This document shows, in pieces, positions 2,163-58,123 of a stretch of DNA of 60,346 nucleotides. Source of the stretch: Vermamoeba vermiformis (lineage: Eukaryota). Position numbers and translations under genes: made by a program. The stretch lies in contig JBEWZL010000100.1 of the NCBI GenBank assembly GCA_045837725.1, positions 1 to 60,346 on the forward strand, read 5' to 3'. Below the pieces are notes generated by a model that was not told the origin of the DNA, ran no database searches, and was given only the letters and a program-made list of their open reading frames with translations. Within the stretch, counting starts at the first letter, position 1. The number at the start of each line of letters is the position of its first letter.

Positions 2163-4397
2163 TTACTGATGAAGATTGCTCGCGACATCATTAGTACCAG
2201 TATTATTGTTTGTTATGTTATTACTATTATGATCATCAGTCTCTTCACTAGGCTTCGTGCTCGGTTTGTTCGTGCTCGATTGAGTTGAGGGCACATCCGG
2301 TAAAGTTCGTTGTTTTGGTACTTTTTCACTGATTAACATGCACGTGATGACTTGCGACAAAATTTCAGCCTAAAATAGATTAATATAGATTCGATAACTA
2401 TTATTATATACTTACGTCTACTAGTGCCGAATGCTGCGTCAATCGCGTGTCCAAGTTGATGTTGAACTGCACGGCAAGATCGTTCAGTGAATAACTCCGA
2501 TTCGGATATTTTTTCCTAAACCAGCTCTGCGTGCAAAAAACAGATCTTTTGGCGAATTTATCACTCAAATCTAACCGTTGAATCTCGTTGATAAGAAACC
2601 TCATACTAAACAGAGTTGTTGGTACTAACACGTGAATTTCCATATTTGGTAATGACATACTCAAACGGGGCATTGTGAGCTATGAGGGGTGATTTTCCGA
2701 TGAATTGTAAAAAGCTGGCCATTACAAACTACAAAAGTGTTAAACTATTAGTGACACGTGTCAACTGAAACTTCGAATAGAATCCGTACCTGAATAGGAG
2801 GACTCGCTTGTAACAACTGAGGTGTAATTAAGTGCACGGCTTCGGCCCTGTAGTCGACCACTGCAAAGTTTTCATGAACGGTTAATTCACTGAACGAAGT
2901 TTTCACAGAATAACGTACTTTTCCGTGGCTGAGCGTACGATTGAAACAGCACTCCCGTTCTGTAGCCGTCAATAACTTCCACGGCACCGATCTCGATGAT
3001 GCTGTCGTCATTGGAGAAACCTAAATTTGGTAATTAGCAACAGTCCGAAGTGACACTTTGACACGAGAAAGTTGACACGTGCCTGAAGTCTCGAGATCAA
3101 AAATCACAGCTCTGCCTTTGACTATTGTGGTAATGTCGTCAGTGATCTCGCAGTACGGAGCTCGATTGAGGACTGCTTGAGAGGGACCTTTGTTGGCACT
3201 AGAACTCGTGCTGGAGCTCGTCGAAGTGAATGAAAAGCCTTCGTTCTTCCAGCCCTCGATGAGTCTATTGCGCAGTTCTGACTTGAGTTTCTGTCTGTCT
3301 TTTGTCGAGGTCACTGTTTGCTTGTCAATCGACGTCTTCGATGAGAACCAGATCGGCAAGGCACGTGATTGCGTGGACGGCGGAACATCGTCCATATTGT
3401 CCCCGTCGTTGTTATTCGTATTATTGCTATTATTCACATCAGAAATATTCACAGTATTATTTACAGGTTGATTTTGTGTGCTGGTCGCGTTGTTGGTGTT
3501 TTGGATCGCGCCAGAACTACTTTGCTTAGTGAACTTCTTTCTATTAGTATTCGTATTATTATCATTAGTATTCATATTATCGATCGTATTGTCCGTCAAA
3601 AAAACTTCATTTTGACTGTCTTGAGATCCAGGGCCGATCGCATTTGGCGGTCGTTTTGATTTTGCTTTAAATATCTTGCGCTGCTGAATTGACCCTGATT
3701 TTTGAGACTGACTAGGCACTATATTATTATCTTTCTTATTGTTCGCATCGCTGTTGTCCGTAACTTGGGTCGGATCTATTTTCGCGGACGGAGCACCAAT
3801 GTCCAAATCTTCTTCGATCTTATTATGCACATATTGACTAGTAATATTGTTTGTGTTATTTGCAGGTTCGATATGAAGGCTATTAATAGGCTTAGTGACT
3901 GGTGCAGGGGTGCTAATGATATCTTGACTCAGATCGTCAAGTGCGTCGAGTAGATGCGCCATTCGTTCTTCACCGCTAGTCATATTATTACTATTTTGAG
4001 TATTATCGTCGTTATTAGGACCTTTTTGTGAAGTTTCTTGAGCAGATCTGTTTGGGGAAGCGGATTCGATCTCCATTTTGTTCTCGTCTCTTTCTTCTTC
4101 AGCAATATGCTCCTTATTTTCTATATTATCGACATCTATATTCTCTTCATCGCTATCATTCAGTTGAATGCCTTCTTGCGTGCCTAAAAGATCTCCCTCG
4201 TGATCCATCTGCGTCACCAAGTCGTTAAAATCTTCTCCATAATTAGTCTTATTCAATAAATCATTTTCTTTGTCGTAGTCCTTGGCTTGATCTGCTTTTA
4301 GTTTTTCTTGGAAAGTCAAAGATGACGGTGATTTTTTGAAGCTTGATCCGCCAGTCTCTTTTTCCATAAAATCGAGTAAATCTTCTTCAGGCTCCAT
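2163..4397 (-). CDS. DEDDh 3'-5' exonuclease (DnaQ/Pol III epsilon-like domain) behind a long acidic/Asn-rich disordered N-terminus
   Basis: Spliced C-terminus reads AVIFDLETSG-FSNDDSIIEIGAVEV (ExoI), LIAHNAPFDMRFL (ExoII), HSALVD-AEIL (ExoIII). All catalytic residues are present. ATG 4397 (MEPEEDLL), stop 2163. Confidence 0.85.
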
Positions 4398-4796
4398 ATT
4401 TAATATTTGTGTATGATATCTAATGGTTATAAGAGTAAGATTCACGCTACTAACAATTAAGAATAGAAATCAATTTGTAAATTCGATTTTAAGCGCATTG
4501 GTTTTAGCTCCAAATGCACCTTAATATTAATTATAAATAATACTGCATGTTAATAATTATTGTAATTTTTTAGGCGCAACCGAAGCAGAGATCTGATGAC
4601 TAAATTTGTTTGGGGAGTAACAGAGCATAACTGGCCCATACTAGAACTAATAACTACCTACCTATTAATAAATGTACTATTTGAATTGACAAAACATAGC
4701 TCTGCTGTGGTGTTCAGATCTGATTTTCAAAAAAGAGCGGGATCTGAAGAAACTCGTATCTTTTTCGTTTTTTGACACTTAGAGGCCCTTCATTGT

Positions 4797-6922: not shown

Positions 6923-9900
6923 ATGGGCGATATGTATGATAGTGCTACTGTTCAATTCATAGATCAAGAGATTGATAAGCTGTAAGTGCAAACATTTGCA
7001 ATAATGGCACGAGCAAAATTATCGCCATTATAATTTTTATTATTTTTAGAAATTATTGGAATTTAGTATAATAGTGAATAATGAAATACGCTGTCCGATA
7101 TCAGATATTATTTATTTTCTTTAACACATCCGCGCTTTCTTTGCGCACGGCAACCATTTTAATATTATTTATATTTAGCTTGCATAAAGCGCCTGCAAAG
7201 AAAACGAGATTTTCTTCGTTCGAAGATCTCTATCAAAATTTGGCGGAACCGCAGTCTGAGCCCATTCTACAGGCCAATAATATTAGAATAAAGCAAGAAA
7301 CTGCTGCTCAAATATACGTAGAAGAAGGAGCAGTACCTTTAGCGGCCGAATCTGACGATGAAGAAATTTACATAGCAAATCCGATCCCGCATCCGGTACT
7401 AGACCGAGAAATCAAGCAAGAAAATCGTCAATATGAAGAAAAAGAAGAAAAAATAATAATTGAAGGCGTATTTGATCAATTATACTACGCTCATATTAAA
7501 ACTGAAGAGGAACCGGATCCCCCTTCGAACCACTACTTTGACGAACACGTTGAACAGCCTCAAGAAGTCAACGGCAATGAACAATATGACGAACCTGATA
7601 TAGATGGCGCCCCTTATATCAGCATACCAGTAGAGTCCCAAGAAAACAATATCACTAAGGAATTAGCTTCGATCAACAGTCAGTCAAACAACGATTTTTT
7701 GAAAGAATTAGATTCGCTTCAGACAACAGCAGAAACACCTAAAATTAGACTTAGATCAACACCAAATAATAGTAATAATAATTCTATGCATATTGAAGAA
7801 AGACCAAGTCAGCAGCCGGATCCGATAATTGACGAACCATTAATTGATTTAAATGGCGATGACAATGCTGATAAGCGCGCAAACGAGTCACAGGAAGTAT
7901 ATATTACGGGTATGAATATTAAACAGCCCATTATCAAGGACATATTCAACGATGACGATGATTTTCAATCGCCTGTCAAAAAATCTAGTACTAACGCCAA
8001 AAAAGATACCAAAAAGTCATCAAAAAATGCTGCAGCCCAACTAAAAAGCAAGATTAATAATAATAATGGCAATGTTACGGAAGATAAGGACAAAAAAGCG
8101 AAGAATAACCCGAGTAAGCCTGAGACCAAGCTGAAACTACTGCCGCCAAACGAGAAAAAAGCAGCGGAAAAAAGTAATATTTCCAAGAATAAGAATGCAG
8201 TAGTTGAATCAAAGGCCGCAGAAGAATCGTCGAACACTAACGGCGCATCTGAGAACAATAATAATAATACTCAGATCAGTCGTAGCAAAAGACGAGTAGT
8301 CCTTGAGAATATGAATAAGAAGTATACCGATGAAACTAGGATTGTCGATGGATATTTCGCGAACAAACAAAGTACCACGACTGCAGCCACATCCACAAAA
8401 AGATCACCGAAGAAAAGATCGCAAGACAATACAAAGATCCTTCAGGTATATAATTTCTAAACTATATCATATAGTAATATATTAGTAACGATTTTATATG
8501 CTAGCGATGGACTTTGTATTGTTGGGGACGAAGAGGATTCATGCGCCATATTGAATTCAGCGTGCCGTTATTAAAGCATCGAAAGTAAGCTACAATTATA
8601 TTTAATAAGCTTACTAATGAATGTTATTTAGTTTGATTACGTATTACAAGACGTTATTAAATGAAAATCGACCGCGAATCAAAGTGGATAAAATCAGATC
8701 CAGTACACCAAACCATATTCATGTATTATCGCTAGACATGAGTGCCATAACATATGTTATTAACTTGGGCGATAAATTATCGCTGAATAAGCAATCTGGT
8801 ACGTACCTTATTATTATACATTCGATTTTCTGGATATTAATTATTAATTTATTATTCTCAGCATTTGTAAATAAGAAAGGAATTCAATATAAAGGAAGGC
8901 TATATAAGTCGATAGAAGAATGGAGTAGCGCATGTTTAAAAGAAACCTCGTCTCCGAAACTAGATCTCGCTACGTTATTAAGTAAGATCGAGGTTAACAA
9001 TAAGGGCTCATTCAAACAGGCTATGGCGAGGTCCAATCCTTCGATTCATATGTAAGCGTCGTATATTTGTGCCAAGATACCTTATTTAACGACTTTTCTT
9101 TAGAATGAAATCGCATCCGTTCCTCAAACGCAATGTAAATAGATTTATCGACGTAGCGAGGAAGAGATCAGGCAATAAGACTTTGTTCTCGAATTTAAAT
9201 AGCATTAAATGGCCACCTGAAGAGGAGCCTGCGAGGTACATTTACCCGAGTGATTACAAAAATCGGCTTGATCTGCCGATCGAAGACAAACCGAAGGTAC
9301 TGAGTGTTAATTAGCAATCTTATCGATACAACATATACTAATATGCTAATAGAAGAGGAAAGCCCCGACTTCTGAACCTTCAAACGAGCGTCCTAAGAAA
9401 AAGCAGAAAACCGCACCTGAACATAATGATAATGGTGTTGCCGATCATAGTAATCCATACTTGACGCGAAGAAATAAGGATTCAGAACCTGTTGTTGATG
9501 AACGGAAAGAAAAGAAAGCTGAAGAAAAGAAACCAAAGAAAAGACAAAAGCCGATCGAAGAAAAGCCAAAAGAATCAGCGATAATTAAACAAAAGACCGA
9601 TAAGCCTAAAGATAAGCCTAAGGAGAAGCCTAAAGATACTCATAAGAAGCAAAAAGAAGTCCGAGAAAAAGAACGAGAGTCCCCGATCTTAGAACGCGCG
9701 GAAAAATCAGCTAAAAATAGAACAGAAATCCGAGTGGAGAAGCCTAAACCAGTCATTTCTATTCATAAGGACTATATTGATGAAATTAATGGCTCGAGCA
9801 ACAAGAACACGAATTACGCAAAGTCGAAAGAAAAGGATCCTTCTAGATCTAGCTTGAGAGAGCTTGTCAATGCGCAACAGAAGAAGAAAAAGAGTAGTTG

Positions 9901-10188: not shown

Positions 10189-11883
10189 TTAGCTTTCGCT
10201 CAGAGGCTTCTTTTGCTCCGTTAACTTGACACCGTCAGTAGCCTCTTTGTCGCTATTTTTAGGCACACTGAACACTTGCGACAGCATCGCATTAGTTGCA
10301 ACATTGAATATACCCGCCAAGCTAAGTGTAATGACGGCCGATAGAGGTATGTAGATTAATTCACAAACAGTCCAGGCCACCTCGATGATGCGTGTTGAGA
10401 AGAATAACGCAGTTGTGATGAAAATCTTGTCCGATAACTACGAGTACGGAATCGTTAGTCTTTAAGTCAAGGTCTCAAATAAGCTAAATTTTTCTTGGAA
10501 TCTTACTTTCTTAATTATTTTTCGCTTATTGTCAGACACCGCTGCTTTGCTCTTCAACGACTTCAACAATTTCGACCCCAAAATCAGCCAACTGATAGTT
10601 ATCGCCTTAAATACAAGGCAAGTTAGCTTGTTAGTTAGTTTAGATGTTGTTCGTACAAGTGCCACGACGAAGTAGACAACAGGCACCAACACTTTAATAA
10701 TCCGAGCGCTCGGGACGAGAATATTGAACGGTAATAGCAGTAATAAGATTACAATGATAACCGCAGCTACGATTAATGGCACGGCAATTCGTTTTGAAAT
10801 CTTTTTCTTTGGCACTCCTCGCACATCCGTCATAATGTCGTACCTGTACGATTAGCTTTTGATAGCTATAATAACGTAATCAAGAACCTACCAGAACACG
10901 CAGATAGCGAGACATGCGAGTGTTTGACAGGCATCAGCAAATACTAAAAACAAAGCAAAAACTTCGAGGTAGCCGACCAGATTCAGAAGATTGCGCACTA
11001 TCACGTAAATGAAAACTGCTGCCAAATCCAACGAACCAATCGAGATTAATATCAGACTGACTTGTGCAATAGATCTCTGCAGCCCTGCAGCATACGAATT
11101 AAATCTAAGACTACTGCAATGTTTGATATTAATAACACCTACCGTTGACAGAAATTATTCTTCCCAATTTCAATAACGATAATATAGATGCTGCTAATGA
11201 GCACGCTATTGTAATTGCGTATAAAGTAAGAGCTAAAATCGACTGATTCATCTCTTTCCATTCGTTTGGATCTGCCACAAATAATATTAGGAAATATGGA
11301 GCTAGAATAACTGCGTACGTACCTCCGCTAGCAAATAATCCTTTCAAATTAGGGTCGTTACTGAGTAACTCCTGCAATAGGGCGATATCCTAAGGCATCA
11401 TAAGATTACAATTTAATGATTAAGGTAGACTTACTCCGAAGCTGATCTGGGCCCTCGGAAAATAAACGAAATAATTCTGTATATAAATGTAATTGTATCC
11501 GACTGGTCTATCTGGGCTAGGGAATATTACTCCCTAATTCCGAATTAGAACAATAAAGACATAAATCTTATTTTCAATTTTATAATAATCAACTTACCAC
11601 TGCACCATAACTACTCCAGTCGGTGTTGCGACATCCCCCTGCATCGTACCCCAAAAACACCCAGATGGCTCCACGCAAATCGGATGTGTTCCGTGTCACC
11701 TGACACTCGACTATATCCACCAATTTAATCGGGGCATAGATTGAGAATGAATTGTTTTGCGCGAAATTAGGCGTATCTAAAGTTACATTGCCTAATAATT
11801 CGGATATTACCAGTATCGGCAGAACGCCGCTAAGTCTGGACACAAACAAAATCTTGAAATAGCGAAAAGATTAGAGTTGCACG
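10189..11883 (-). CDS. Membrane protein with PA-like extracellular domain and about 7 TM helices (paralog 1); 5' end apparently damaged
   Basis: Signal-peptide-like segment, extracellular region (ECQVTRNTSDLRGAIWV...GGCR), then serial hydrophobic helices across GT-AG exons to TAA 10189. No clean ATG found, and the signal-peptide frame needs a 1-nt shift near 11855. Confidence 0.6.
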
Positions 11884-12044
11884 TCAGCTTAATATATTTA
11901 TATGCGCTCACCACTACTATTTCGAATTTACGTGTGTTCATCGGGACGAATAAACAAAATCTTTTAACTATTAAATCAGAACTGACACTTCCAAAATTGG
12001 TTAAAAAGTTTTTCTTTATTTACATACCACGCACTACGGACTCG

Positions 12045-12305
12045 TTAGTTCTCGTAGTGAATGACGTACTCGGGATAGGCCTGTGCATTGTCAAAGATGA
12101 CAGACATGTTTTGATTGCCCACGCTGTCATATCGCTTGCCATTTTGGCCCGGGATCTCAGGAGGACGACGCAAGCCTTGCGAGCCAGGACCGACCTTGCC
12201 CAACAAGACACGGCAGTACAGCATCTTGTGTGCCAATTTGTGCTCGTCAGCATAGAAGTTGTGGCCCCATTGGTTCACGTGTCTGCGGTAACGCTTGTAG
12301 TTCGC
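12045..12305 (-). pseudogene. 3' fragment of a PARP/ADP-ribosyltransferase catalytic domain (mono-ART type)
   Basis: KMLYCRVLLGKVGPGSQGLRRPP...RYDSV...MSVIFDNAQAYPEYVIHY* matches the PARP catalytic C-terminus (RVL.G, RPP, YDS, VIF...Q.YPEYVI.Y). The upstream HG and GxYFA motifs are absent. Confidence 0.75.
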
Positions 12306-12683
12306 GTGACCCTCGAAGAAGTCAGAAAACAAGTTGAAGCCACATTGAAAGAGACAGCCGAGAAGAAAAAGATTTATTACACAGTTGAATACAACGGATT
12401 TCACGCTGAAGGCTGCGTCATGGACAAAAACGACCAGATGATGAAACTGTTGGGCGAGTGTCACAAGAAAGTGACCAATCAGGAACCAGTCTACGCACCA
12501 GTCACGTGCACCACTGACGCGCGATTCTTCCAATTGTATCACAACACACCTGCTACTTGTTACGGCCCTGAAGCCTCGAGCATTCACGGCATTGACGAGT
12601 CAGTTAGTCTGGCCAGCATGAACAGCGTGGCACGAGTCTTGGCTGTGTTCATGGCCGAATGGTGTGGCCTGGAAAAGATTTAA
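12306..12683 (+). pseudogene. 3' fragment of an M20 (ArgE/DapE, acetylornithine deacetylase-like) peptidase
   Basis: VTLEEVRKQVE...YNGFHAEG...TCTTDARFF...PATCYGP...IHGIDESV.L.S...VARVLAVFMAEWCG is a typical ArgE-family C-terminus. The N-terminal metal-binding half is absent. Confidence 0.8.
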
Positions 12684-12824
12684 TAAAATTAATAAATTTT
12701 ATGAAATTCCGCTGTGAGTAGAAATCAGAACGGAAGTAGGTCAAAATAAAAGGCTGTTTGTTTTTCATGATGCTTTATCATAGGACATACTATTATGATA
12801 CAAGTGTTCTTCAATAATTTCATA

Positions 12825-15800
12825 CTAATCCACAATCGACGCCAAGTACTTCAAAAACCTCTTTCGGTAAGGCTCCGGAGATATGGCGGAAATTTCTTTC
12901 TATAAAAGGAAGGCACCGTTAGATCCATGATATCTATTAATGCTATGAATAGCCATACCTTATTGTACAAGACGGACTTCAACACACTTTCACCTTTCTT
13001 TTTCAGATCGTACACAGTGAGTGTGTCAATGATACCAATGCAATAGACCTCGTTGCGATCACGAGTACCTGCTAATAATCCGCCACGATTCTGTTTGAAT
13101 ACAGATTTGTCGAGAGGACCTGGATCTGGTTGTTCTGCACATCCAAAAAAAAAACGTTAAGCACAACTCATATTTAAGCTATAATAATTGTTTCGTACCA
13201 CTTAGTTTCTTCTTATCTTCGTCAATTAAGAAACTAAATCCAACGAGCAAACTGTAGTCGCAAATATTCATACTTTCCATCCACTGTTCGAGGCACACTT
13301 TAGCACGTGATTTCCATATATGGTAATAACATTCATCGGACTTACCTTGCTGTCTATTTCAGCCTGTTCGAGCAGCATAGATTTCAATACAGGACCCAAT
13401 ACGATTCGTCGATGAAAGTCCAAATCTTTCAACGCAACATTGCTGTTCCAATCTTCTGACCGCACAGATCTGTTCACCGTGGAACCCTAAGACATATCGT
13501 TAGGACCCTAGTAAATATATCTATGTGTTGTAGGTGGAGGCTACCTTCAAATCGTATTGTTCATGAATGTCATATGGCGTATCAAACAGATTGGCCATCA
13601 CGACAAAATAGATCTCGGTCGGTTTGCCGACTTCTTTCTTGTTGCTCATGATCTGTTGTTTCAACTTGTGCAGACCATAGAATCGGGGTACTAATGTGTT
13701 CGGGTACCTATTGATGTGCTAAACAAGCCAAACATAATCAGATCCAATTTTTTTTTTACGCATCCGATTAAGACTTACGGTCCAATACTGCGGCAAAATC
13801 TTCTTCAAGAACTGATGTTCATCGGGCGGCAAGGTCTTAATGAAGTACTTCCCGTCTTCAGTTTTCAAAAAGAAACTGCCGCTGCGACCACTGGATGCGA
13901 TCTCTTCGAGCGAAGCGAATCTGCCAGTCAACAAGCTGCCCAACAGCCGCTCAACACTCAAGGTGTGCATGTATTCTTTTTGGTCCACGCCAAAGAATTC
14001 GCGGATCTTCCAGAACACAGCTGGCGCGACGTCAATAAAACTCCAGTTCTGCGTCTGTTCGCTCGTGGCCGTCAATGTCAAACGAGGCAGGGAGCTCGTG
14101 GCGTTAAAACTAACGATTGCCTTATTTAGTAATGATAGACTAATATGGTAATCGTGAATATCGTACCTCAAACTGCTGACTGGCTCTTCAATTTCTTCGC
14201 TGAAATGAATAATGTCGTGCAAGTAGTTCAGCTTCAACGTTTTCAATCGCTTGTTGATCTTGCTCAGCTAAAAATAGCATCGAGTTAGCACGTGTCGAGC
14301 TATTACCAAATATGGAAAGTGCGGCACATACCGATTTCGTGAATCCCAAGAGCATGTTCTGCGTTAGCTCCCATTGCTCGTGTCCAAAAGCTATGGCCAG
14401 GCCACGTCGTTTGGCATTTCTGAGCAGTTTTTCAGGCAACACTGCCTTATTAGTAAATCGACCGAGGCTTTGAACCACTTTGAAGTTTTGCGTCACGATC
14501 TGCGAGAACTGATCGAAGTTCAATTTGAGGACGGTAGAATTGGGCGGGAAAAACACTTCAGTGACATCTTTTAAGTGTTTCGTGCCGAGGTTGTACTTGT
14601 TCAGCGTGGATTCGATGGACTTCAAGAACATCGCCAAGTCATCTTTTGACACGAAGCCTTTGCCTTCACTGTCGAGCATCTTGAACGCCACTGTAAGAAC
14701 GGATTAGTTAGTGACGAGCGGTCCACACAAATGCGACATTGGTCTTACTTTGCAATTGTTCTTCAGCATTGCCACGTGTCAGAATGCTCAAGCTCGTGAT
14801 GAAGTCGTTCGAGTCCACAGATCCGTCACGCTCGACGTCAAAGGCCTTGAACAGCCTGCACGCAATGTACTCGTCGGCCAATAAGAACCCCAAGGCCTTC
14901 GTGAAGTCCGTCAAGTTGAGCGTCGTGTTCTTCTTGTTGATTTCAGAAAACTGATTCAATATGGACGTGTATTGCGAGGACGAGACTAAAGCACAATGTT
15001 AGCGTGTCATTCGCTGCGTTGTAAGATAAAACGTGGACTTACAATACATCAAGAACTTGTCTTTGAAGAGCTCCACGTTGTCATTGACGAATTCGACAAA
15101 ACTCTTGGGCTCGTTGCCGGTGATCTCCTGGTACAACGGCGACACAATGCTGTGCGTGTCAAACGCGTTCAAGGCTTTGAAAAGCTCGACCAACCGATCA
15201 ATTTTCCAATCCGTGTAATCCTCCCACTGTTTCGTGGCGTCTTGCTCGGTGTTGTTGGTTGAGTTAGGATTATTGCCCCAAGGAAGCAGAGTTGACAAGA
15301 TCCTTCGTCGTTGTTTGGTCTCGTACTCGTCGATGGCTGGATGAATGCCGTCAGATGAACTGTTCGAGGATGAAACTACCAGACTGCCAATCGTCGTCAG
15401 CCCACTCTGTATCACTGACATTACTGGCGAGGCCTCTTTCTGCATGTCTAGCACCTCCCTAATATGGAATGTGAGCAATGACATTCACTCAAAACACAAT
15501 AAAAATGAGTGTGAGTCTTGACCAGATCCAAAAATCAATGACTTGAAAAGCGGTCAGAAGCTCTTAAGACCGCTATATTATCACGAATAAAGCTCGTTGG
15601 CGTGATTTTTGACTTACTTTTTGAGTGCCATGAGATACTCTTTGTATTGACTCATTTCGAGCTCTTCGAAAAACGTCTCGGAATTCAATTCGCCAGCGAA
15701 GATTTGACTCACTTCTTCACAGCTCAGAGCTTCAGGACCGCTCACGTAATACATCTTGCGGTAATGCTCCGCTTCCGTAGCCCGAGGACAGCCTAAATAT

Positions 15801-18800
15801 AGCACATTAATAAATTACATAAAGTGCAATCAATAACGTACTCGTCACTAATGCAACCATTCGCGCTACATCGTGCACATCGACCCACGCATACTTTTTG
15901 TCGCGCGGCAATGGCAGTCTGAAGCACGAATCTTTTTTGATGCGGATGAACGGCTCTTTGAATAGCTGCATGATAGCGCCGTTGCTGCGAATAAACGTGA
16001 ACGGCATTGCTGTCCAACAAAATATCTTTAGTACCGTGAAAAAAACTGCGTCCATAGGCCAAGTTTCCAATACTAGGAGATGCCTATATGACTACTTACG
16101 TGCTTCTTCGACGAATGTTTGTACAGTTTTGTTGCAGCAAGACAAGAAATCATTGCCCTCGCTCAAGGTCGTAGTCACGGCAGATCACCTGCCGTAGTTG
16201 CGGTGGCGAGCATTCGACGAGTGCTTGAACCTAATTAGTCAAATGTTAGCAAAACTGACTATAACGAGAAGATATCGCAGAGAAAAAGGTTTTTCGGAGT
16301 TTCTAACGAGCTAAATTTGGCAGCAATTTAAAACTTTTCTCTTGAATGTACGGGGAAATGTCTTCGCCCGAAACATGTTTAAGTTACGGGATAAATGGTA
16401 TTATACCTGATTAATGGTATTCGAGTCTACTTCGCACGCTAATATAACGAGCTTGTCCATTTGTTTGAGCAGATCTGTCAGCTCTTCTTTTGACTTCGGG
16501 TCCTTGATATTGTAGATGTCTATATTGAGCGCCCTGTGGAATAAATAGCATGAGTATATGTCCTAACGTACACGTGTCACAAAATGCATCAACCAGGGCT
16601 AGCACGTGATTCACAGAATAAATTTTGATTTTTTTAATTGGGCATTTTCAATCAAAACAGCATGAAACAAACATCTAAATCATGATGCCAGGCAAAGGAT
16701 CAAACGAGAAGTCATTAGAATTACATATACAGTCAAAAGATAAGATAAGAGACGTAAAGAAGAAAATTCAGAAACAGACTGGCGTCGATGTGAAGCAACA
16801 AAAATTACTCTTTAAAGGAGAAGAATTAAATAATGATAAAACTGTTGGAGAATATGATATAGATGTCGCATCCAATTTGTTTCTTGTAATTTCTCGTAAG
16901 AATGTACATTAGTCTAGTTTAGGTTTTTCAAGTAAAAGTCTTATTAAAAGATATCGGGTGCGGTCAAATCTGATAAGATAAGTACTTACTTCATTTTTTC
17001 AATCGATGGCAATGGTCCGTGAGCGTTTTGGAACATTACCCAACGAATGTTCGCATCCGCATTCGATCGAAGAAGGTTAACCGTGGATTCAAACAACTCG
17101 CGATTGATGTTACCAGTAGGAGTGAAGATAGCAACTCGAACTTTCTAAACATGATAGCAAATTAGAGATATTCAAACATTCTGACAAACAAATCCGAATC
17201 TCACCTTGTAAACATCATTCCATAATTTTTCTAATAGCTTAAATACAGCTGATCGATTGCCAAACGATGAGAATACGTACTACGTAAATAATAAGTTTAG
17301 TGATTGAAGCAGCAATAAATTCCCTGAACCACTGAAAATTCTGATCGAAACTTGAGAAACAGATCAAAACGAAATTACACGGACCACCAGCATAAACGCT
17401 GTTGTTAAATTATAATGTGTAATAAAAAATATGCAATTTGCACGAGAACAAGTTATTTTGGCTTACGGATTCGTTTGGCAGTTCAATGACGATCGCCTTC
17501 TTGCTGGACTCCTTTATGGACTTGATATTTTCGAAAGATATTAATTTCTGTGCGGATATATGACAGTTAGTAGTCTATTAATAGGATTGTTAGCATTTAA
17601 AACATACAACAAGGCCAGATCCGTTGTCGAACCCGATATGAAAGCGGGAGGTATAGAGCTTGCCTTTAGGACTCAAGGTCCTGTCACCAAACTTGCATGA
17701 AAAGACTATAAAGAACTGCGTTAATAAGTTCCCTAAAGCAATCGAGATCTATCGTCAAAGTGAAGTTCAATTTCGTTTGACCTGGCGGTTAATTTTTCCG
17801 TATTTTCTGACACTTGATAGTACTTACATGCAACGATAGCTTCGGTTTCAGGTAAATTAAAGGTCTTTCTGAATTTCTTATTTTCTTTCGGATATTTCAA
17901 GGCGCCTAGCATGTGCTGGATCGGCTCACCGAGGACCATTAACGGTACGTTAATACCTTTCGATGCATGAAGATGCTTTAAGACTGCTAGTGTTCCTTCT
18001 AGCTCTTCTTCGCGGGCAAAGACAAACTTTTGCTTGCCAGCCGTTATGATCAGCTTATTGAACTGAAGAAAGACTTTCTGATGCTTGAAGTTTGTGACAT
18101 CGAAGAGCGATATTTTCTATATTATTAACCATTGTTAGCAATGTACAGGTAAGTCTTCAAATAAAAGACAATATTTGCTACTCGCTTCAGAAAACTCGAT
18201 AATAAATTTGATATAAGCTATTTAGCTGTACAATATAATAATATATAAATATACGTACCAAGTGGACCTTGTCGTCTGCTGAAAGAAAGGTCAAGAAGTG
18301 TTGCCAAATACAAAGATCTCCTTCGGCATCCACTGTCAGTTTCTTAGTTTCTTCTCCTTCGAAAAGGATCTTGATAACTATAATAAGAAGCAATTAATAA
18401 TGAATCTTATTTTTTCTTCCAGATCTGTAGTGGATCTTACCTTCAACCAACTGATCGTTGCCGTTCAAGTGGAAGTACTGGATATGTCGCTGTTTAATCC
18501 TAGACTCAGCAGTAGGCGTCATCAACGTCATTTTAGGGTCGTTGTTATTTACATTCTCGTTGTTGAAGCTCGTACTGTCTTCAGTATCCTCGCCACTCTC
18601 GCTGTCATTGTACGTAGCCGCTACACATCGATTAATTCCAAACATCAATTACTATCTAGTTGTACTTACATCTTCTATAATCTAAGCTTGTAGAAGATGA
18701 ATTTGAGTCGGTTCGAGGTCGATGTCGGACCGCATCCAACTGGTCGTTTTTCAGTTCACTCGAGCCGTGAGATCCGTCTGTAATAACACGCCATTAATAT

Positions 18801-21086
18801 ATACGGTACTAGGCCTCACTGCAATGGTATTCATAAAGAAGGTGTGTCTAAATACTGCAATGGACTTACGAGGCATGCGATACATCTTGATGACACGCAC
18901 TACATCCGCATTGCTTGCGACGTCTAGTGCTGTGCCACGCTTGCCGCGTCTGTGCTTGTCAGCTTTGTTGGCCAACAACAGCTTAATAACTTCAATGTGG
19001 CCTCCACGTGCTGCATAATGGAGCGGTGTCTCACCATTTCTAAATAAGGAAAGTCAGATCCAACCATCAAAAATCACTAAAACAGCGAGAAATACGTACT
19101 TTGTAACAGCGTTGATTTCAGCACGGTGCTTGATCAAAATATCAACTGCTGCGAGATTTCCTCGTTGTGCGGCTTCGTGCAGTGCTGTTTGTCCGTAATT
19201 ATTTTTCAAATTAATATCGAGCCGTTTTTCCATTAACATCGAGACGATGTCACTCAACGTGTCTTTTTCTTTCTGTTGATTAATACTACAAATGCAAAAA
19301 TGAGTTGAGGCACGAGGACTTGTCTAACTGAGTGTAACTTACAAGTTTCTGAAACAATAGTGCAAAATTCCACTGCCATCGGGAGTGACGCAGTTGACTT
19401 CTATCGTTGGTCTGGAAATCAGAATTTTCAACAGATCGAAATATCCATAGGCCGCTGCCAATAGTGCTGGTGTCCACTTCGAATCGTTTCGTGCGTTCAA
19501 TAGTGATTCGTCGTCTTGAATAAAAAACACGACTCTATCCGACTGATTTTTTGTAACGGCATCGTGTATCGTGAATTTCGTTCCAAAACTTCATTTCGGG
19601 TCGTTAGTAATGTCAAGTCAAAAAAAAAAACAAATAATACGTACGTTGATTTATCCATGATGGCCGAAGAGATTAAGCTCAGTCTTGGCGGACTCATTGG
19701 TGGTGAATTGCTAGGCGAAGGAACGTACGTGGCCTTCTTAGCCTTCCTGTATAGCTTCAACATGTTGACAATGTGCGTGTCTCCAATCTGATTAGCGAGT
19801 TCTAGTGGTGTGCCTTCCTCGCCTTCCGCTGTTAAATCGACACCTTTTTCGACGAGAAATTCCGCGAGATCAAAATTTTTGGCTCGAATTGCAAAATGAA
19901 GGACATTGTCGCCCGACCTAAAAGCATTGTTAATAAGCTTAGCTACGAGATATGTCATCTATAATACGTACAGTGTTTTGATGTGCAAGTCAGCTCCAAG
20001 TGCCAAAAGTGCTTTGACAGTTTTGAGCGGTGCGTGCAGACATGCTTCGTGAATTGGAGCCTAGTTAAATATATTACGTTAATAAAACTCTCAAGGATGA
20101 AATATGACACGTGTCAAAGAGAGTCTCGTACCTCGCCCTTCATCGCTTGCGCGTTGATATCAGCACCACGGTCCATCAACAACTTGATCACGTCATTAAA
20201 CCTCCCTTCATCTTCATCTTTGTGTGGCCACCTAATATAATAACAACACATTAGTATAAATGAAAATAGCGAAAAGAACTCGTAATATTTTTTCTACGGA
20301 GTGAAAAATGTTTGGCATGCGAGATCCCTACCTGGCCAAGAAGTGCATCGCAGTGAAATTCTTGTCGGTCAAACAACACACGTGCGAATTGCCGTCGCGG
20401 ACGAGTATTTCAATGCACTTGAAGTGCTGGCCAAATGCGGCGCAATGTAACGGCGTCCAATTGTTGTTATCTCGCGTGTTCACTTCGGGATCCAACTGCA
20501 CGAATTTAAATTGGGATTAATATTTACATTTGCAAATATGACACTATATATAGCAGTGCCTTATATTACCTTCTTTTCGCCTTTTTTAGAATTATTTCGG
20601 TCTACTAATGTCAACACAAATTTTAACAGATCTGGTTGGCCTGCACCAGCTATAATATGAAGCGGAACTTGTCCCTGTAATACAACATATTATTAATGCT
20701 ATTTTTATACTAGATTGATTTGTTATGCAACAGCGGAAAAACTTTTTGGGCGTTAGATCTGGACCACCAAAAAATTTTGTTAGATTTATATTATAGCTTA
20801 CCTTATCATCTATAATCGAAAGTGAGTCGGGATTTTTCTCTATAAATTGCTCAGCTTCAGTCCATCGATTGTTTTGACGTAACATATCGTGGATCTCGAG
20901 GCTTTTTGCCGCCAAATATTGATTTTGAAAGAAACAATAGAGATAGCTGTCTCTATTAAATACGACCTTGTTACTATTCATCTTGTCTTTGGTTTCTTCG
21001 AGAGTTTTCAATTCTACATCTAATTTTGTCGTTATTTGATTGTAGTCATGTTGGATCGCGTTCAACGAAACTGCATGAGCAATCAT
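12825..21086 (-). CDS. Multidomain phosphatidylinositol-phosphate kinase: ankyrin repeats - 2x GRAM-like - NmrA-like Rossmann - EF-hands - PIP5K
   Basis: Phase-compatible GT-AG exon chain: ANK (GQTALHEAA, WTPALLAA, GDNVLHFA); GRAM (KFRKTFNLPETEAIV...GKLY...YVFSSF); NmrA (KVRVAIFTPTGNIN, PFTFIRSN, WVDVHDVARMVA, YYVSGPEALS); EF-hands (FDVERDGSVD, LDSEGKGFVSKDDL); PIP5K (SSGRSGSFF...KYFIKT, YDLKGS, DYSLLVG, IGIIDTL, ISAISPEPYRKRF). Needs one +1 frameshift near 16180. The start codon is uncertain. Confidence 0.75.
16682..16912 (+). CDS. Small ubiquitin-like (UBL) domain protein, intronless, nested antisense in an intron of the PIP5K gene
   Basis: LELHIQSKDKIRDVKKKIQKQTGVDVKQQKLLFKGEELNNDKTVGEYDI..SNLFLV aligns with the ubiquitin fold. 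No C-terminal GG. Confidence 0.75.
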   Translation: MMPGKGSNEKSLELHIQSKDKIRDVKKKIQKQTGVDVKQQKLLFKGEELNNDKTVGEYDIDVASNLFLVISRKNVH

Positions 21087-22087
21087 CCATTTGTTGTTAT
21101 ACACTATTCTGTATTCTTTATCATCTGAGGCTATATTAAAAAATAAAATGAGTCACCTGCCGTTGTTTCTCATTGCGCAGCCATTAAAAAAATATTAAAT
21201 TTATTTGAAAAAATCTGACGGTAGTATATAATGTAAATATCGATATAATAACAATGATTGATATGGATTAAAATATATTCCAGTGTATACAGCGGTTATA
21301 TTCAAATTTGAATGCAGATGTCAAATATTTTTTAGCAATTTACTTGTTGAATATTATTTAACGAGAATTATGATCAAATAATGATACATGAGCACTATGT
21401 ATTTTAAATATTACTTAATGCAAATATAATCTTGATTTTGAAAGTCAACACCAAATCTACTTTTTCGATAGACCAATTACTTACCGTTACGTTCAATAGC
21501 TAAATCATCCAAATCAATCTCGCGGATCCATTTAATTTTTTTATCATCTTCAACTGCTATTGGCTCGCACAAAGGCATTCTAACAACTTGATCGAAGAGT
21601 CAACAGTTAGTTCTTTGCCTGATCCGCCGTTCAAGGTCGTTTCATTAATTGTAAGTAATAAATAGCCTAGTGTGTTATATGAGTGAACTATGGGACAAAA
21701 AAGAGCGCATCCGTAACAACAAATTTTTGTCCTGTATTGTGAACTTTCCAACACTTCATACACAACCCGATGAGTATATAGGAGCATTAGCTGAATAGAG
21801 TGCATCCAAGATTGCTATATAGAAACAATTACTGTTGATTACGATATCCGGTCCGGTAAGCCAATCCGCCTGCGCAATCTCGTCAATAGCGTTTATCTTT
21901 GTGTTAGATCCAAAAGTAATAATTATTTTGACGTACATGAATTGAAAATATATAGCTACTATCCTCTAAATATATATTTAATTACAATTAAAAAACTCTG
22001 GATGCTCCCTCGTATCCTAAGGAAAGGGCATTCGTTACAAAGTATTTTTAGATTTATCTACATATTTTACATAATAGTTTTTTATCA

Positions 22088-26265: not shown

Positions 26266-26336
26266 CAGGCCTTAGTTTAGTGGTAGAACGGAGGGCTGTA
26301 GTCCCTTAGACGTCGGTTCAATTCCGGCAGGCCTGA
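26266..26336 (+). tRNA. trnY: tRNA-Tyr (GTA), intronless
   Basis: Acceptor stem CAGGCCT/AGGCCTG with discriminator A (C1:G72, A73 are eukaryotic Tyr identity elements). D-arm GTTT..GAAC with TGG. Anticodon stem GAGGG/CCCTT with loop CT-GTA-GT. T-arm GTCGG-TTCAATT-CCGGC. Confidence 0.92.
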
Positions 26337-38500: not shown

Positions 38501-39678
38501 AGAAGAGAGGCCAAACAATAACCGTAGAAGGTGTCAAATATGTCGACTTTAGGAATTTGCTCAAATTGCTCTACACTGGCAAAGTTATCGTTCGATCCGA
38601 AGAACGGTACAAAAACTTGCGAGATCTGCTCAAGAAATACCCCTTAGAATTTAAGGACAAGAAATTATACAAAGAGGATGGTCATATAATCAGAATTCCT
38701 ACGAATGCCTTCAATAGCCTCTACAACGACAAGCATACATCCGACATCCGGCTTTTTGTCAACAACAAGCCCTTCTTTGGTCATAAATGGGTCCTCGCCG
38801 CGAGAAGTGGATTCTTCAATGACTTGTTTTCCGAAGACCCCGAAGCCAGCGCGGAGCAACACGAGTGGATCGCCCCGAACGAAACAGATTCGGAGTTGTT
38901 TTCAATAGTATTGCAGTTTATGTACTTGGGTCTGGATGCCGTCGATAACCTCAACAAAATTCTACTAAAAAGGAATAGACGCGTTGTTGAGGACTTGCTG
39001 ACCCTGGCGAGCACGTACCGAGTCCTCGATCTCAAGCTCCGGTGCGAGAAAGCAATGCTGGAATTTTTGGACGCATCCAGCTTACTTTCCATATTTGGAT
39101 TGGCTATCAAAGTCCGCGCGCATCGTTTGAAGGCCTATTGTCGATTCTACCTAGCATTGTCATGGAAGGAGTACGTCAATCTGCCGGAGTATCGCCAGCT
39201 ATTTTTAGAACATAAGGACGAGATGGAACTGGTCGTCAAACAGTCTAAGAACAAGAGGTATTATGCCGATGAAGAGTACCCTGCTTTAAATTTACCAATT
39301 GCCAAATATAGTAATGTTGGATTGCCGCAATGCAATACCGAGGGACCACATCCACAAAATCCCTCAATTTTGAACAGCTTTGGCGGCAGCTTGCCTTCTA
39401 TCAATCAAATCGACGCTAGTTTGCCTAATATGGTTAAACCACCTGGATCCGGTCCGTTTCACTCCACAGTAGCGGTCCCGCATTGGCCGACTACGGATCA
39501 GATGTACATGAACTACATGCCACCTCAGCCAGGCTATGGAGCACCTTACCCTTATATGGCACCGAGTCCTTACGCCGGTTACGTCCCTGGATCCAATCAA
39601 CCTCCGCAACCTATGCCGCAGCCTCCCAATTACCCACCTACTAACGACTTCTCAACGTGGACCAAGAAATGGAATTAA
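35583..39678 (+). CDS. SAP domain - Kelch repeats - 2x BTB/POZ protein with Pro/Tyr-rich tail (LZTR1-like Kelch-BTB-BTB layout)
   Basis: MKVLKLRDELKSRNLSPSGLKSVLVKRL (SAP). Kelch: ARCCHSAT...ILIVGG, RAGHSAT...IFLFGG, RAFHSVV...LYVFGG. BTB: LSDINFRV...AHKSLV and TSDIRLFV...GHKWVLAARSGFF...LQFMY...LKLRCE. Confidence 0.85.
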
Positions 39679-58105: not shown

Positions 58106-58123
58106 CGCTTGAATTAGCCTTTC

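What the first reader, a model, noticed from the sequence alone, without database searches (positions are those of the whole stretch)
12825..21086. One giant gene: ankyrin-GRAM-GRAM-NmrA-EF-hand-PIP5K lipid kinase
Seen in sequence: the ORF track splits this into ~15 pieces, but the splice phases join them. The second GRAM exon (...WNDVYK) splices to KVRVAIFTPTGNINRELF...IEKM-K (17144-16990). Its phase-2 donor at 16989 matches the acceptor at 16534, so the frame continues through an NmrA/atypical-SDR Rossmann domain, calcineurin-B/recoverin-like EF-hands and a PIP5K domain. The kinase keeps DLKGS, DYSLL and IID, and has Glu in the activation loop (KKGESVLK), which by established knowledge favours type-I PI4P 5-kinase specificity. 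Inference: one protein could link lipid binding (GRAM), dinucleotide/redox sensing (NmrA with a degenerate GxxGxxG) and Ca2+ sensing to PI(4,5)P2 synthesis. I do not recognise this architecture from characterised PIP kinases.
Basis: partly seen in the sequence, partly recalled or inferred. Interest (0 to 1): 0.78.

Follow-up and report, generated by a model that had tools for sequence, protein, structure and literature searches.

The report
Giant multi-domain PIP kinase gene
This is one real 31-exon gene for a lipid kinase of about 1,800 residues that carries ankyrin, GRAM, NmrA-like and calcium-sensor-like modules, a rare undescribed design shared with a few amoeba-like relatives, though this copy has one extra base that breaks its reading frame.

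Summary
On the minus strand, 21086-12825, 31 exons encode about 1,805 residues. The domain order is ankyrin repeats, a GRAM-like domain, a GRAM domain, an NmrA-like Rossmann domain, an NCS-like EF-hand module and a PIP kinase.

Spliced transcript contigs from two runs carry the predicted 16989/16534 junction and both neighbouring junctions. The spliced model aligns end to end with four proteins of 28-30% identity. One of them is a single 2,405-residue transcript ORF from the testate amoeba Pyxidicula.

- The window has CC at 16180/16179 where both transcript sets have one C. As written, the frame stops inside the NmrA-like domain. This is an assembly error or a very recent broken allele.
- The 456-base intron holds an antisense ubiquitin-like gene.

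The kinase looks type I-like. The GxxGxxG motif is degenerate in 9 of 9 family members, so redox sensing is unsupported. This protein's EF loops are poor, so Ca2+ sensing is uncertain.

Four literature searches found no paper describing this architecture. I rate it a new variant of a known kind, of moderate interest.

The parts
12825..21086 (-). Whole coding gene. It has 31 exons and 30 introns and encodes about 1,805 residues when read through the break at 16179/16180 with X.
   Evidence: Gene model. 15 of 30 introns are seen as joints in spliced contigs or reads, and 2 more by loose ends or joints with unmatched letters (27 further joints were not displayed). The model aligns collinearly with P0124 (model 72-1779 in one HSP, E 0) and P0156 (71-1779).
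20802..21086 (-). First coding exon, an N-terminal region of 95 residues.
   Evidence: Model residues 2-307 align with residues 6-360 of P0013 (E 7e-30). X1 contig 20949-21123 extends upstream of the ATG (table 8).
18740..20674 (-). Ankyrin-repeat region, roughly residues 96-548, over exons 2-10.
   Evidence: Pfam Ank, Ank_2 and Ank_4 hit 6 of 9 ORF pieces here. The region aligns collinearly with the ankyrin regions of P0124, P0156, P0002 and P0013.
17954..18474 (-). First GRAM-like (PH-like) domain, residues about 624-729.
   Evidence: No Pfam hit. A profile-profile comparison with the second GRAM gives Prob 81%, E 1.2e-5 over 91 columns. The Atlas neighbours of the equivalent part of P0124 are all PH/GRAM-type clusters, at scores 0.86-0.89, which is a lead only.
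17205..17906 (-). Second GRAM domain, residues about 746-856, ending in WNDVYK.
   Evidence: This part aligns to the stretches of P0002, P0013, P0024, P0023 and P0016 that pass Pfam GRAM PF02893 (27.2-35.2 bits, cut-off 23.6). The window's own exons give no hit.
15618..17144 (-). NmrA-like atypical-SDR Rossmann domain, residues about 857-1107, over exons 17-21.
   Evidence: It aligns with residues 1-250 of P0160 (E 7e-35), and P0160 passes Pfam NmrA (40.8 bits, cut-off 27). The P0160 model's N-terminal domain matches QOR2 (Z 13.8), HSCARG (12.5) and NmrA (12.4). The GxxGxxG motif is degenerate.
16534..16989 (-). The disputed 456-nt intron, inside the NmrA-like domain.
   Evidence: An X1 contig skips exactly this stretch (side 128, GT..AG on the minus strand). 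X2 shows the same joint with 5 unmatched letters (tables 5 and 5c).
16682..16912 (+). Nested antisense ubiquitin-like ORF (76 residues from the ATG) lying wholly inside that intron.
   Evidence: Pfam ubiquitin PF00240, E 6.6e-18. Unspliced contigs cover it: X1 16664-16870 and X2 16687-16953. Raw RNA reads of a relative give depth 38-74 here against about 0-7 over most bins of the host gene, and molecules end at 16912/16946 (tables 2, 6, 8).
16179..16180 (-). One extra C relative to transcripts. It shifts the frame, which then stops at TGA 16152-16150.
   Evidence: table 4. Homologues align straight across the site in the transcript frame.
14466..15458 (-). Linker plus an NCS / calcineurin-B-like EF-hand module, residues about 1108-1400.
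   Evidence: Pfam EF-hand_7 gives E 1.2e-5 (26.0 bits, below the cut-off of 30) and EF-hand_6 gives E 1.5e-4, on two exons. The module aligns to the EF-hand region of P0030 (E 1.7e-11). The P0160 model's residues 352-589 match calaxin (Z 14.4), NCS-1 (14.2), KChIP2 (13.7) and CBL2 (12.9).
12828..14406 (-). PIP kinase catalytic domain, residues about 1420-1805, containing GRSGSFF, YFIKTL, DLKGS, CDYSLL, IID and the activation loop KKKGESVLK.
   Evidence: Pfam PF01504 hits five exons in collinear order. The family profile against the PDB gives PIP4K2B E 3e-61 and PIP5K1A E 2.6e-57. Against metagenome locus L001, mismatches by codon position are 39, 32 and 237 of 690 each.

Best explanation
This is a single gene encoding one large cytosolic phosphatidylinositol-phosphate kinase. 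The catalytic domain sits at the C-terminus and four kinds of accessory module lie upstream.

Shown:
- The exons are joined in RNA.
- The whole domain order is conserved in distant relatives.
- The coding frame of the 3' half is under purifying selection.
- The kinase keeps its ATP-binding and catalytic motifs.

Inferred mechanism:
- The enzyme most likely makes PI(4,5)P2 from PI4P. It has a type I-like fold and a Glu at the activation-loop specificity position.
- The tandem PH-like GRAM domains probably bring it to a particular membrane.
- The ankyrin repeats probably bind a protein partner.
- The NCS-like EF-hand module directly precedes the kinase, as in apicomplexan NCS-PIP5K. It probably acts as a conformational regulator. 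In this protein it may have little or no Ca2+ affinity.
- The NmrA-like domain has lost the dinucleotide-binding glycine motif across the family. It most likely serves as a protein-interaction or scaffold module, not as a redox sensor.

The organism is probably an amoebozoan of the Tubulinea. The best named hits of two separate genes are arcellinid testate amoebae.

The single extra C at 16179/16180 is more likely an assembly or strain-level error than old decay.
For: RNA:
- One X1 contig and one X2 contig carry the chain of joints 16010-16099, 16231-16406, 16534-16989 and 17145-17204. This links the GRAM exon to the NmrA-like exons.
- Fourteen introns in all are seen in X1 and/or X2 contigs.

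Homologues:
- The model aligns with P0124 over residues 72-1779 in one HSP and with P0156 over 71-1779.
- It aligns with P0013 over 552-1804 plus the N-terminus, and with P0002 over 79-1371 and 1419-1805.
- P0002 is one Trinity transcript ORF from Pyxidicula operculata.
- Pfam on the homologues: P0002 has Ank, GRAM, NmrA and PIP5K. P0124 and P0156 have Ank, NmrA and PIP5K, and P0124 also has a weak GRAM hit. P0160 has NmrA, EF-hand and PIP5K.

Folds of the P0160 model (pLDDT 63.6 overall, domains 80-92):
- Kinase domain: 4tz7 type I PIP5K Z 30.1, rmsd 2.7, 286 aligned.
- EF module: NCS-1 Z 14.2.
- N-terminal domain: QOR2, HSCARG and NmrA at Z 12.4-13.8.

Selection: against L001, exons are 85.1% identical and introns 53.5%. 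Mismatches by codon position are 39, 32 and 237 of 690 each.

Motifs and the invariant activation-loop Glu.

Taxon: Pyxidicula, and Arcella intermedia for the gene at 51337-52278.

The break is recent or an error: 838 codons downstream of it remain open.
Against: - As written, the window DNA cannot encode the full protein.
- No single contig spans the whole mRNA. The Ank-GRAM half has lower depth than the 3' half in all four runs (table 2), so an extra shorter transcript from an internal start is not excluded.
- X1 and X2 are only guessed to be RNA by the tool. Their intron-less contigs are what indicates cDNA.
- X13 and X15 reads are mostly 90-95% alike, so they come from a relative.
- GRAM and NmrA are not detected on the window's own exons by Pfam.
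- Type I assignment is not decisive. The family profile scores PIP4K2B slightly above PIP5K1A (210 vs 197 bits). Apart from the Glu, the activation loop resembles the type II loop printed.
- The structure was predicted for a homologue of 32-40% identity, not for this protein.
- Substrate, localisation, and Ca2+ and nucleotide binding are all untested.
Confidence: 0.8

Rival explanations
1. The window copy is a non-functional, frame-shifted allele or a young pseudogene. An intact copy exists elsewhere (another haplotype or strain) and is the one seen in the transcript contigs.
For: The window has CC where X1 (17.1 of 17.1 depth) and X2 (3.97 of 3.97) have one C. The frame then stops after 10 codons. 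Several close variants of the same exon exist in public data (P0001, P0151, P0152 and P0153 at 90-97% identity), so more than one copy or strain is around.
Against: There is no other stop or indel in about 1,805 codons. 838 codons downstream of the break stay open. A one-base difference in a two-base run is also what an assembly error looks like.
Confidence: 0.3
2. Two separate genes, an Ank-GRAM-GRAM protein ending at IEKMK-TAA (16989-16987) and an independent NmrA-EF-PIP5K protein, lie on either side of a small ubiquitin-like gene.
For: A TAA lies in frame right at the donor. An expressed opposite-strand gene occupies the gap. Depth is higher over the 3' half (table 2). P0160 starts at the NmrA-like domain.
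Against: Spliced contigs in two runs bridge the gap. The junction falls inside the Rossmann domain, whose first strand and helix lie on the upstream exon. That exon has no usable in-frame start. Four homologues carry both halves in one protein, one of them as one transcript ORF. P0160 begins without upstream sequence at exactly the position of this exon's start, as expected for an exon-level ORF call.
Confidence: 0.04
3. The kinase is not a PI4P 5-kinase. It has type II-like (PI5P 4-kinase) specificity, or mixed or other specificity.
For: The family profile scores PIP4K2B a little above PIP5K1A (E 3e-61 vs 2.6e-57). The last-but-one exon finds only type II chains by sequence, and the loop length and KKK context match them.
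Against: The Glu is present where type II chains have Ala in the alignment, and it is invariant in 9 of 9 members. That this position switches specificity is recalled from Kunz et al. 2002, which I saw only as a reference in PMC5262455. The fold match favours type I by 6-8 Z units. The N-lobe exon scores 29.2 bits on PIP5K1A against 24.4 on PIP4K2B.
Confidence: 0.2
4. The fusion is an artefact of mis-assembly or chimeric contigs.
For: Nothing specific. No single RNA contig covers the whole gene.
Against: The same order of six module types appears in five independent sequences, counting the window, from at least four lineages of about 30% identity. Junctions are seen in two runs from two studies.
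Confidence: 0.02

Closest known systems
Apicomplexan NCS-EF-hand PI4P 5-kinase (PfPIP5K, PF3D7_0110600; TgPI4P5KA)
   Same: An NCS-like EF-hand module is fused N-terminally to a type I-like PIP kinase domain. PMC10543664 (passages read) describes it as preferring PI4P and as a possible link between Ca2+ and PI(4,5)P2.
   Different: The apicomplexan enzymes have no ankyrin, GRAM or NmrA-like parts. That review calls the NCS-EF plus PI4P5K pairing unique to Apicomplexa. The present family and its EF-PIP5K relatives do not fit that statement (P0160; P0020 from Mucochytrium quahogii; P0009, P0011 and P0030 from Amoebozoa). Whether the pairings share an origin was not tested.
Ank-C1-EF-hand-PIP5K proteins of dictyostelids and protostelids (P0030, XP_012754041.1, Acytostelium; P0108, Dictyostelium citrinum; P0009, Protostelium; and P0011, Planoprotostelium, which lacks a C1 hit)
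   Same: These are among the nearest kinase domains to the window's (34-36% identity over EF plus kinase). They have ankyrin repeats at the N-terminus and EF-hands directly before the kinase.
   Different: A C1 (diacylglycerol/phorbol-ester) domain takes the place of the GRAM-GRAM-NmrA block. They are 1,065-1,570 residues long. Their sources call them hypothetical or putative.
RpkA-type GPCR-PIP5K fusions
   Same: This is another protist design in which a signalling module is fused upstream of a PIP5K domain. It is mentioned as the 'cAMP-PIP5K domain architecture' in PMC3971589 (passage read).
   Different: The upstream module is a seven-helix receptor. There are no soluble GRAM, NmrA or EF modules.
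Zebrafish and human type I PIP5K alpha (PDB 4tz7, 5e3s, 6cmw)
   Same: This is the best fold match to the kinase domain of the homologue model (Z 30.1, rmsd 2.7, 286 aligned, 29% identity). It shares the catalytic motifs.
   Different: The animal enzymes are essentially a kinase domain with tails. None of the five upstream modules is present.
NmrA / HSCARG (NMRAL1) / QOR2 atypical SDRs
   Same: They share the Rossmann fold of the same subfamily (Z 12.4-13.8 on the homologue model; Pfam NmrA on P0160, P0002, P0124 and P0156).
   Different: Those proteins are stand-alone and, from general knowledge, bind NAD(P)(H). Here the glycine motif is degenerate in 9 of 9 members and the domain is embedded in a kinase.

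Membership tests
PIP kinase (Pfam PF01504, PIPKc) | Match to the family profile across the catalytic core. | tested here: met
   Five exon ORFs hit profile positions 6-49, 51-99, 100-152, 152-179 and 230-281 of 288 in order. E-values run from 1.4e-16 to 9.3e-4; three are above the 27-bit cut-off on their own.
PIP kinase (Pfam PF01504, PIPKc) | Catalytic motifs: glycine loop, the Lys in the IIK-type strand, DLKGS, DYSLL and IID. | tested here: met
   GRSGSFF, YFIKTL, DLKGS, CDYSLL and IID can be read in the model. They fall in invariant columns of the family alignments.
Type I PIP5K (PI4P 5-kinase) | Glu at the activation-loop specificity position. | tested here: met
   In KKKGES, the Glu aligns with the second Ala of KKKAAH in the PIP4K2 chains. 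It is invariant in 9 of 9 members. The meaning of this position is recalled, not tested.
Type I PIP5K (PI4P 5-kinase) | Closer to type I than to type II or III in sequence and fold. | tested here: inconclusive
   The fold of homologue P0160 favours type I (Z 30.1 vs 24.1 and 22.3), as does the N-lobe exon (29.2 vs 24.4 bits). The whole-family profile slightly favours PIP4K2B. No phylogeny was made.
Type I PIP5K (PI4P 5-kinase) | Phosphorylates PI4P at the 5-position. | not testable with these tools
   This needs an enzyme assay.
GRAM domain (PF02893) | Match to the family profile. | tested here: inconclusive
   The window's exons give no hit at E <= 0.01. The aligned stretches of five homologues pass (27.2-35.2 bits, cut-off 23.6). 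The first, upstream copy is supported only by profile-profile comparison (Prob 81%) and an Atlas lead.
NmrA-like family (PF05368) | Match to the family profile and fold. | tested here: inconclusive
   The window's exons give no hit. Homologue P0160 scores 40.8 bits and P0002 27.8 bits (cut-off 27); P0124 and P0156 fall below the cut-off. Model residues 862-1103 align to P0160 residues 1-250 at E 7e-35.
NmrA-like family (PF05368) | Dinucleotide-binding GxxGxxG motif after the first strand. | tested here: not met
   The window reads T-P-T-G-N-I-N. None of the 9 aligned members has all three glycines.
NCS / calcineurin-B-like EF-hand proteins | Compact four-EF-hand fold. | tested here: met
   This was tested on the homologue model: NCS-1 Z 14.2 (163 of 182 aligned), calaxin 14.4, KChIP2 13.7, CBL2 12.9, GCAP-3 11.9. 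The window's region aligns to it. The tool notes that helical matches below about Z 13 are weak.
NCS / calcineurin-B-like EF-hand proteins | Canonical Ca2+-binding loops. | tested here: inconclusive
   The window's Pfam EF-hand hits are below the cut-offs (26.0 vs 30 bits; 21.7 vs 25). One loop, DVERDGSVDSND, is near-canonical. The loop conserved as DxDxDG in most homologues has Lys at position 5 here.
Ankyrin repeat proteins | Several tandem matches to the Ank profiles. | tested here: met
   Six exon ORFs pass the Ank, Ank_2 or Ank_4 cut-offs.

The most novel reading that the evidence does not exclude
The protein is a coincidence detector that makes PI(4,5)P2 only when three conditions hold. 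A specific membrane lipid is bound by the tandem GRAM domains, the NCS-like module is in its Ca2+ (or Mg2+) state, and the NmrA-like domain has bound a metabolite or partner despite its degenerate glycine motif. That would tie phosphoinositide synthesis directly to the metabolic or redox and ionic state in amoebae. A second strand: EF-hand-PIP5K fusion may be an old and widespread protist design, not an apicomplexan invention.
Probability: 0.12. Interest if true: 0.7.

Novelty: new variant of a known kind. Interest (0 to 1): 0.45.

Why it matters
PIP kinases set the level of PI(4,5)P2, a master lipid for endocytosis, motility and phagocytosis, which are the core behaviours of amoebae. Known regulatory fusions are few: plant MORN repeats (recalled, not checked here), GPCR-PIPK, and apicomplexan NCS-PIP5K.

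A conserved kinase with built-in ankyrin, tandem GRAM, NmrA-like and NCS-like modules adds a new design. It offers a natural system for asking how membrane identity and second messengers gate PI(4,5)P2 synthesis.

It also shows, together with its relatives, that pairing EF-hands with a PIP5K domain is not confined to Apicomplexa, as a 2023 review states.

Practically, the locus is a caution for annotation. Gene callers have split it into fragments (P0001 and P0151-P0153 are 110-141 residues). It hides a gene inside an intron, and the assembly carries a frame-breaking base.

Tried and rejected
- no whole genome is held for this window.
- the linker exon (15002-15484) searched against longer proteins gave no hit among 292 candidates. 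This is weak evidence only.
- the GRAM-NmrA region of P0124 found just P0124 itself and P0156. Only 8,000 word-sharing candidates were scored.
- Pfam on single exons gave nothing for GRAM or NmrA.
- my first gene model read through introns, invented a 6-nt exon to dodge the frameshift and missed the 456-nt intron. I replaced it after fixing the RNA-supported introns and the last intron.
- in the family profile against the PDB, ankyrin and kinase chains filled the 60 rows shown, so it said nothing on NmrA or EF.
- the Foldseek list was filled by PIP kinase chains.
- the one metagenome scan returned two contigs (L001, L002) that cover only 15445-12371 and 15209-12473. They do not reach the frameshift site or the nested gene.
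- no earlier findings of this scan.
It was repeated.
- I considered rescue of the frame by alternative splicing. I rejected it because the transcript contigs run straight through the 130-base version of the exon.
- I did not run complex prediction, a kinase phylogeny or a fold of the window's own protein. Spliced sequence cannot be handed to the remote tools.
- bioRxiv supplements are closed, and I opened no supplements. Supplementary figure S4 of PMC3971589 may list PIP5K architectures that I did not see.

Full report
**What is there.** The window is eukaryotic DNA of about 38-46% G+C around the locus, and no genome is held for it. On the minus strand between 21086 and 12825 many short ORFs carry ankyrin, EF-hand and PIP-kinase signatures. 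Pfam on single ORF pieces gives the following:
- Ankyrin families hit 6 of 9 pieces between 18754 and 20689.
- EF-hand hits on two exons fall below the cut-offs.
- PIP5K (PF01504) hits five pieces in collinear profile order: 6-49, 51-99, 100-152, 152-179 and 230-281 of 288.
- GRAM and NmrA gave no hit at this level.

**The disputed junction.** The minus-strand sequence reads ...WNDVYK|GTGAGA...TTTAG|KVRVAIF..., and later ...IEKM-AA|GTAAGT...CCACAG|G-ALNIDIY.
- The exon 17144-16990 is preceded in frame by a TAG and has no upstream in-frame ATG.
- It encodes the first strand and helix of a Rossmann domain, which continues on the next exon. So the 456-nt gap lies inside a domain, not between genes.

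I laid four public runs on 12700-21300.
- X1 and X2 are contig sets that the tool only guesses to be RNA. Their contigs skip GT..AG introns, so they are cDNA-derived.
- One X1 contig (depth 17.1) carries the joints 16009/16100, 16228/16405, 16532/16989 (skips 456) and 17144/17205.
- X2 record 10 (1,183 nt) carries the same chain. In X2 the 456-nt joint is listed with five unmatched letters.
- Shifted to the GT..AG register, these are introns 16010-16099, 16231-16406, 16534-16989 and 17145-17204.

**Gene model.** I fixed the RNA-supported introns and found the others by dynamic programming with a codon score trained on supported exons. I then corrected the last intron by eye. The KSVLYNK|GTATGG...TTATAG|KEISAISPEPYRKRF join matches the loose ends of X13/X15 reads at 12901 and the C-termini of six homologues.
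- The result is 31 exons and about 1,805 residues.
- Of the 30 introns, 15 appear as joints. Fourteen of these are in X1 and/or X2 contigs, one by only 16 letters.
- Two more are supported by loose ends or by joints with unmatched letters in reads of a relative.
- The tool did not display 27 further joints.
- My first model was wrong in several places and I discarded it.

In exon 16230-16100 the window has CC at 16180/16179. Both X1 (17.1 of 17.1 depth) and X2 (3.97 of 3.97) lack one base there (table 4).
- As written, the frame runs into TGA at 16152-16150.
- In the transcript register the exon reads on into the next one. All eight aligned homologues continue straight across the site.
- Nothing else is wrong in about 1,805 codons, and 838 codons downstream of the break are open.
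- The break is therefore either an assembly error or a very recent allele.
- I could not lay DNA reads. The two metagenome contigs I fetched do not reach the site.

**Relatives.** A full HMMER scan with the ORF 13722-14267 found 1,265 proteins at E <= 0.001. Pfam on 24 of the longer or closer ones, plus two more later, shows three related designs:
- Ank-GRAM-NmrA-PIP5K in P0002 (2,405 aa) and P0124 (1,626 aa, GRAM weak). P0156 (1,641 aa) has Ank, NmrA and PIP5K with no GRAM hit. P0013 (2,243 aa) has Ank, GRAM and PIP5K with no NmrA hit.
- GRAM...PIP5K in P0016, P0023 and P0024, and NmrA-EF-PIP5K in P0160. All are about 1,050-1,150 aa and come from contigs called with prokaryote-style gene finders, so they are probably partial.
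- Ank-C1-EF-PIP5K in P0009, P0030, P0108, P0051 and P0059, Ank-EF-PIP5K in P0011, and simpler EF-PIP5K proteins.

The spliced model aligns as follows:
- with P0124 over residues 72-1779 in one HSP (29.6% identity, E 0);
- with P0156 over 71-1779;
- with P0013 over 552-1804 plus its N-terminus;
- with P0002 over 79-1371 and 1419-1805.

Exon junctions do not coincide with alignment gaps.

Names:
- P0002 is a single Trinity transcript ORF of the testate amoeba Pyxidicula operculata.
- P0009 is from Protostelium, P0011 from Planoprotostelium, P0030 from Acytostelium and P0108 from Dictyostelium citrinum.
- P0020 (EF-PIP5K) is from the labyrinthulomycete Mucochytrium quahogii.

A neighbouring gene of the window (51337-52278) has Arcella intermedia as its best named hit. 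The source is thus probably an amoebozoan near the Tubulinea, but this is an inference.

**Selection.** Metagenome locus L001 aligns to 15445-12371.
- Exons are 85.1% identical and introns 53.5%.
- Mismatches by codon position are 39, 32 and 237 of 690 each.
- L002 gives 34, 23 and 199 of about 590.

The frame of the EF-kinase half is under purifying selection. The 5' half was not covered.

**Domain identities.**
- *Second GRAM (model residues about 746-856).* It aligns to the stretches of five homologues that pass Pfam GRAM.
- *First GRAM-like region (about 624-729).* It has no Pfam hit. A profile of it from five sequences matches the profile of the second GRAM over 91 columns (Prob 81%, E 1.2e-5). 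Atlas neighbours of the equivalent part of P0124 are all PH/GRAM-type clusters at 0.86-0.89, which is a lead only. I accept 'GRAM-GRAM' with moderate confidence.
- *NmrA-like domain (about 857-1107).* It aligns to P0160 residues 1-250 at E 7e-35, and P0160 passes Pfam NmrA at 40.8 bits.
- *Structure of P0160.* I predicted it with a 28-sequence alignment. Mean pLDDT is 63.6 and pTM 0.58, but the three domains reach 80-92.

The fold search without Foldseek gave these matches:

| P0160 residues | Match | Z |
|---|---|---|
| 717-1148 | 4tz7 type I PIP5K alpha (rmsd 2.7, 286 aligned) | 30.1 |
| 717-1148 | PIKfyve | 24.1 |
| 717-1148 | PIP4K2C | 22.3 |
| 352-589 | calaxin | 14.4 |
| 352-589 | NCS-1 | 14.2 |
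| 352-589 | KChIP2 | 13.7 |
| 352-589 | CBL2 | 12.9 |
| 1-210/339 | QOR2 | 13.8 |
| 1-210/339 | HSCARG | 12.5 |
| 1-210/339 | NmrA | 12.4 |

The last group also includes many other SDR-type Rossmann proteins. These folds belong to a homologue of 32-40% identity, not to the window's protein.

**What the modules probably do.**
- *Kinase.* It keeps GRSGSFF, YFIKTL, DLKGS, CDYSLL and IID.
- *Activation loop.* KKKGESVLK aligns with KKKAAHAAK of the PIP4K2 chains, which places Glu opposite the second Ala. The Glu is invariant in 9 of 9 members. PMC5262455 (passages read) states that swapping activation loops swaps substrate specificity, and cites Kunz et al. 2002 for a single-residue swap. That the residue is this Glu/Ala is my recollection.
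- *Type.* With the fold preference, I favour PI4P 5-kinase activity at about 0.6. The profile scores are ambiguous.
- *NmrA-like domain.* The glycine motif is degenerate in all nine members. I read the domain as a scaffold, not a dinucleotide sensor.
- *EF module.* It has the NCS fold, but in this protein only one loop is near-canonical. The loop that most homologues keep as DxDxDG has Lys at position 5. Regulation by this module is plausible by analogy with apicomplexan NCS-PIP5K. Ca2+ dependence here is open.

**Literature.** Four full-text searches found no paper describing a PIP kinase with GRAM, NmrA or ankyrin modules.
- PMC10543664 (passages read) describes PfPIP5K with an NCS-EF domain. 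It says this pairing is unique to Apicomplexa, which the relatives found here do not fit.
- PMC3971589 (one passage read) mentions the RpkA cAMP-receptor-PIP5K architecture.
- I did not open supplements.

**Nested gene.** Inside the 456-nt intron, on the plus strand, ORF 16682-16912 matches Pfam ubiquitin at E 6.6e-18.
- It has no C-terminal Gly-Gly.
- Unspliced contigs cover it (X1 16664-16870, X2 16687-16953).
- Reads of a relative pile up to depth 38-74 there, against about 0-7 over most bins of the host gene.
- Molecule ends cluster at 16681, 16912 and 16946.
- The libraries are not strand-specific.

**Verdict.** The exceptions are the frame break, the exon count and the lack of direct Pfam support for GRAM and NmrA on the window. 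The single-gene reading is strongly supported. The sensor interpretation is mostly not supported. The architecture is rare: the window plus four full-length and four partial relatives, seven of them among the 150 best of 1,265 hits and P0156 from a second search. It is conserved and, as far as my searches reach, undescribed. I rate it a new variant of a known kind, with interest 0.45.

Noticed in passing
window 16682-16912 (+), inside intron 16534-16989 of the minus-strand gene: A 76-residue ubiquitin-family ORF (Pfam E 6.6e-18) with no C-terminal Gly-Gly is nested antisense in the intron. In RNA reads of a relative it has depth 38-74, far above most of the host gene, and transcript ends lie near 16946, about 43 nt from the host donor site.
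   Followed up: partly
proteins P0009, P0030, P0108, P0051, P0059, P0011: A sister design, Ank-C1-EF-hand-PIP5K (P0011 has no C1 hit), occurs in Protostelium, Planoprotostelium, Acytostelium and Dictyostelium citrinum. Their sources annotate these only as hypothetical or putative.
   Followed up: partly
protein P0020 (Mucochytrium quahogii) and P0004, P0012, P0029: EF-hand plus PIP5K proteins exist outside Apicomplexa, for example in a labyrinthulomycete. This is at odds with the statement in PMC10543664 that the pairing is unique to Apicomplexa.
   Followed up: partly
window 11799-12680 (+): A peptidase M20-like ORF (Pfam E 1.4e-7) converges on the kinase gene. Its ORF ends at 12683, 141 bases short of the kinase stop codon at 12825. 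The flank is 77% identical in metagenome locus L001, so the neighbourhood is conserved in a relative.
   Followed up: partly
window 51337-52278 (-): An ORF with PP-binding and thioester-reductase (NAD_binding_4) domains resembles a carboxylic-acid reductase (FadD9-like). Its best named relative is from Arcella intermedia (33% identity), and a 90% identical 939-residue protein exists in JGI data.
   Followed up: partly
window 38422-39675 (+), 1138-1929 (+), 26266-26336 (+): There is a BTB/POZ-domain ORF (E 1.4e-26), a leucine-rich-repeat ORF (E 1.3e-13) and one tRNA gene. The tRNA is the only Rfam match in the window.
   Followed up: no
window 58001-60000: G+C rises to 0.51 with a strong negative GC skew (-0.23), and long ORFs overlap on both strands (58073-59859). 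I did not examine this region.
   Followed up: no
window 3021-4469 (-) and 7078-8460 (+): Two long intron-less ORFs (482 and 460 residues) have no Pfam family at E <= 1e-4.
   Followed up: no
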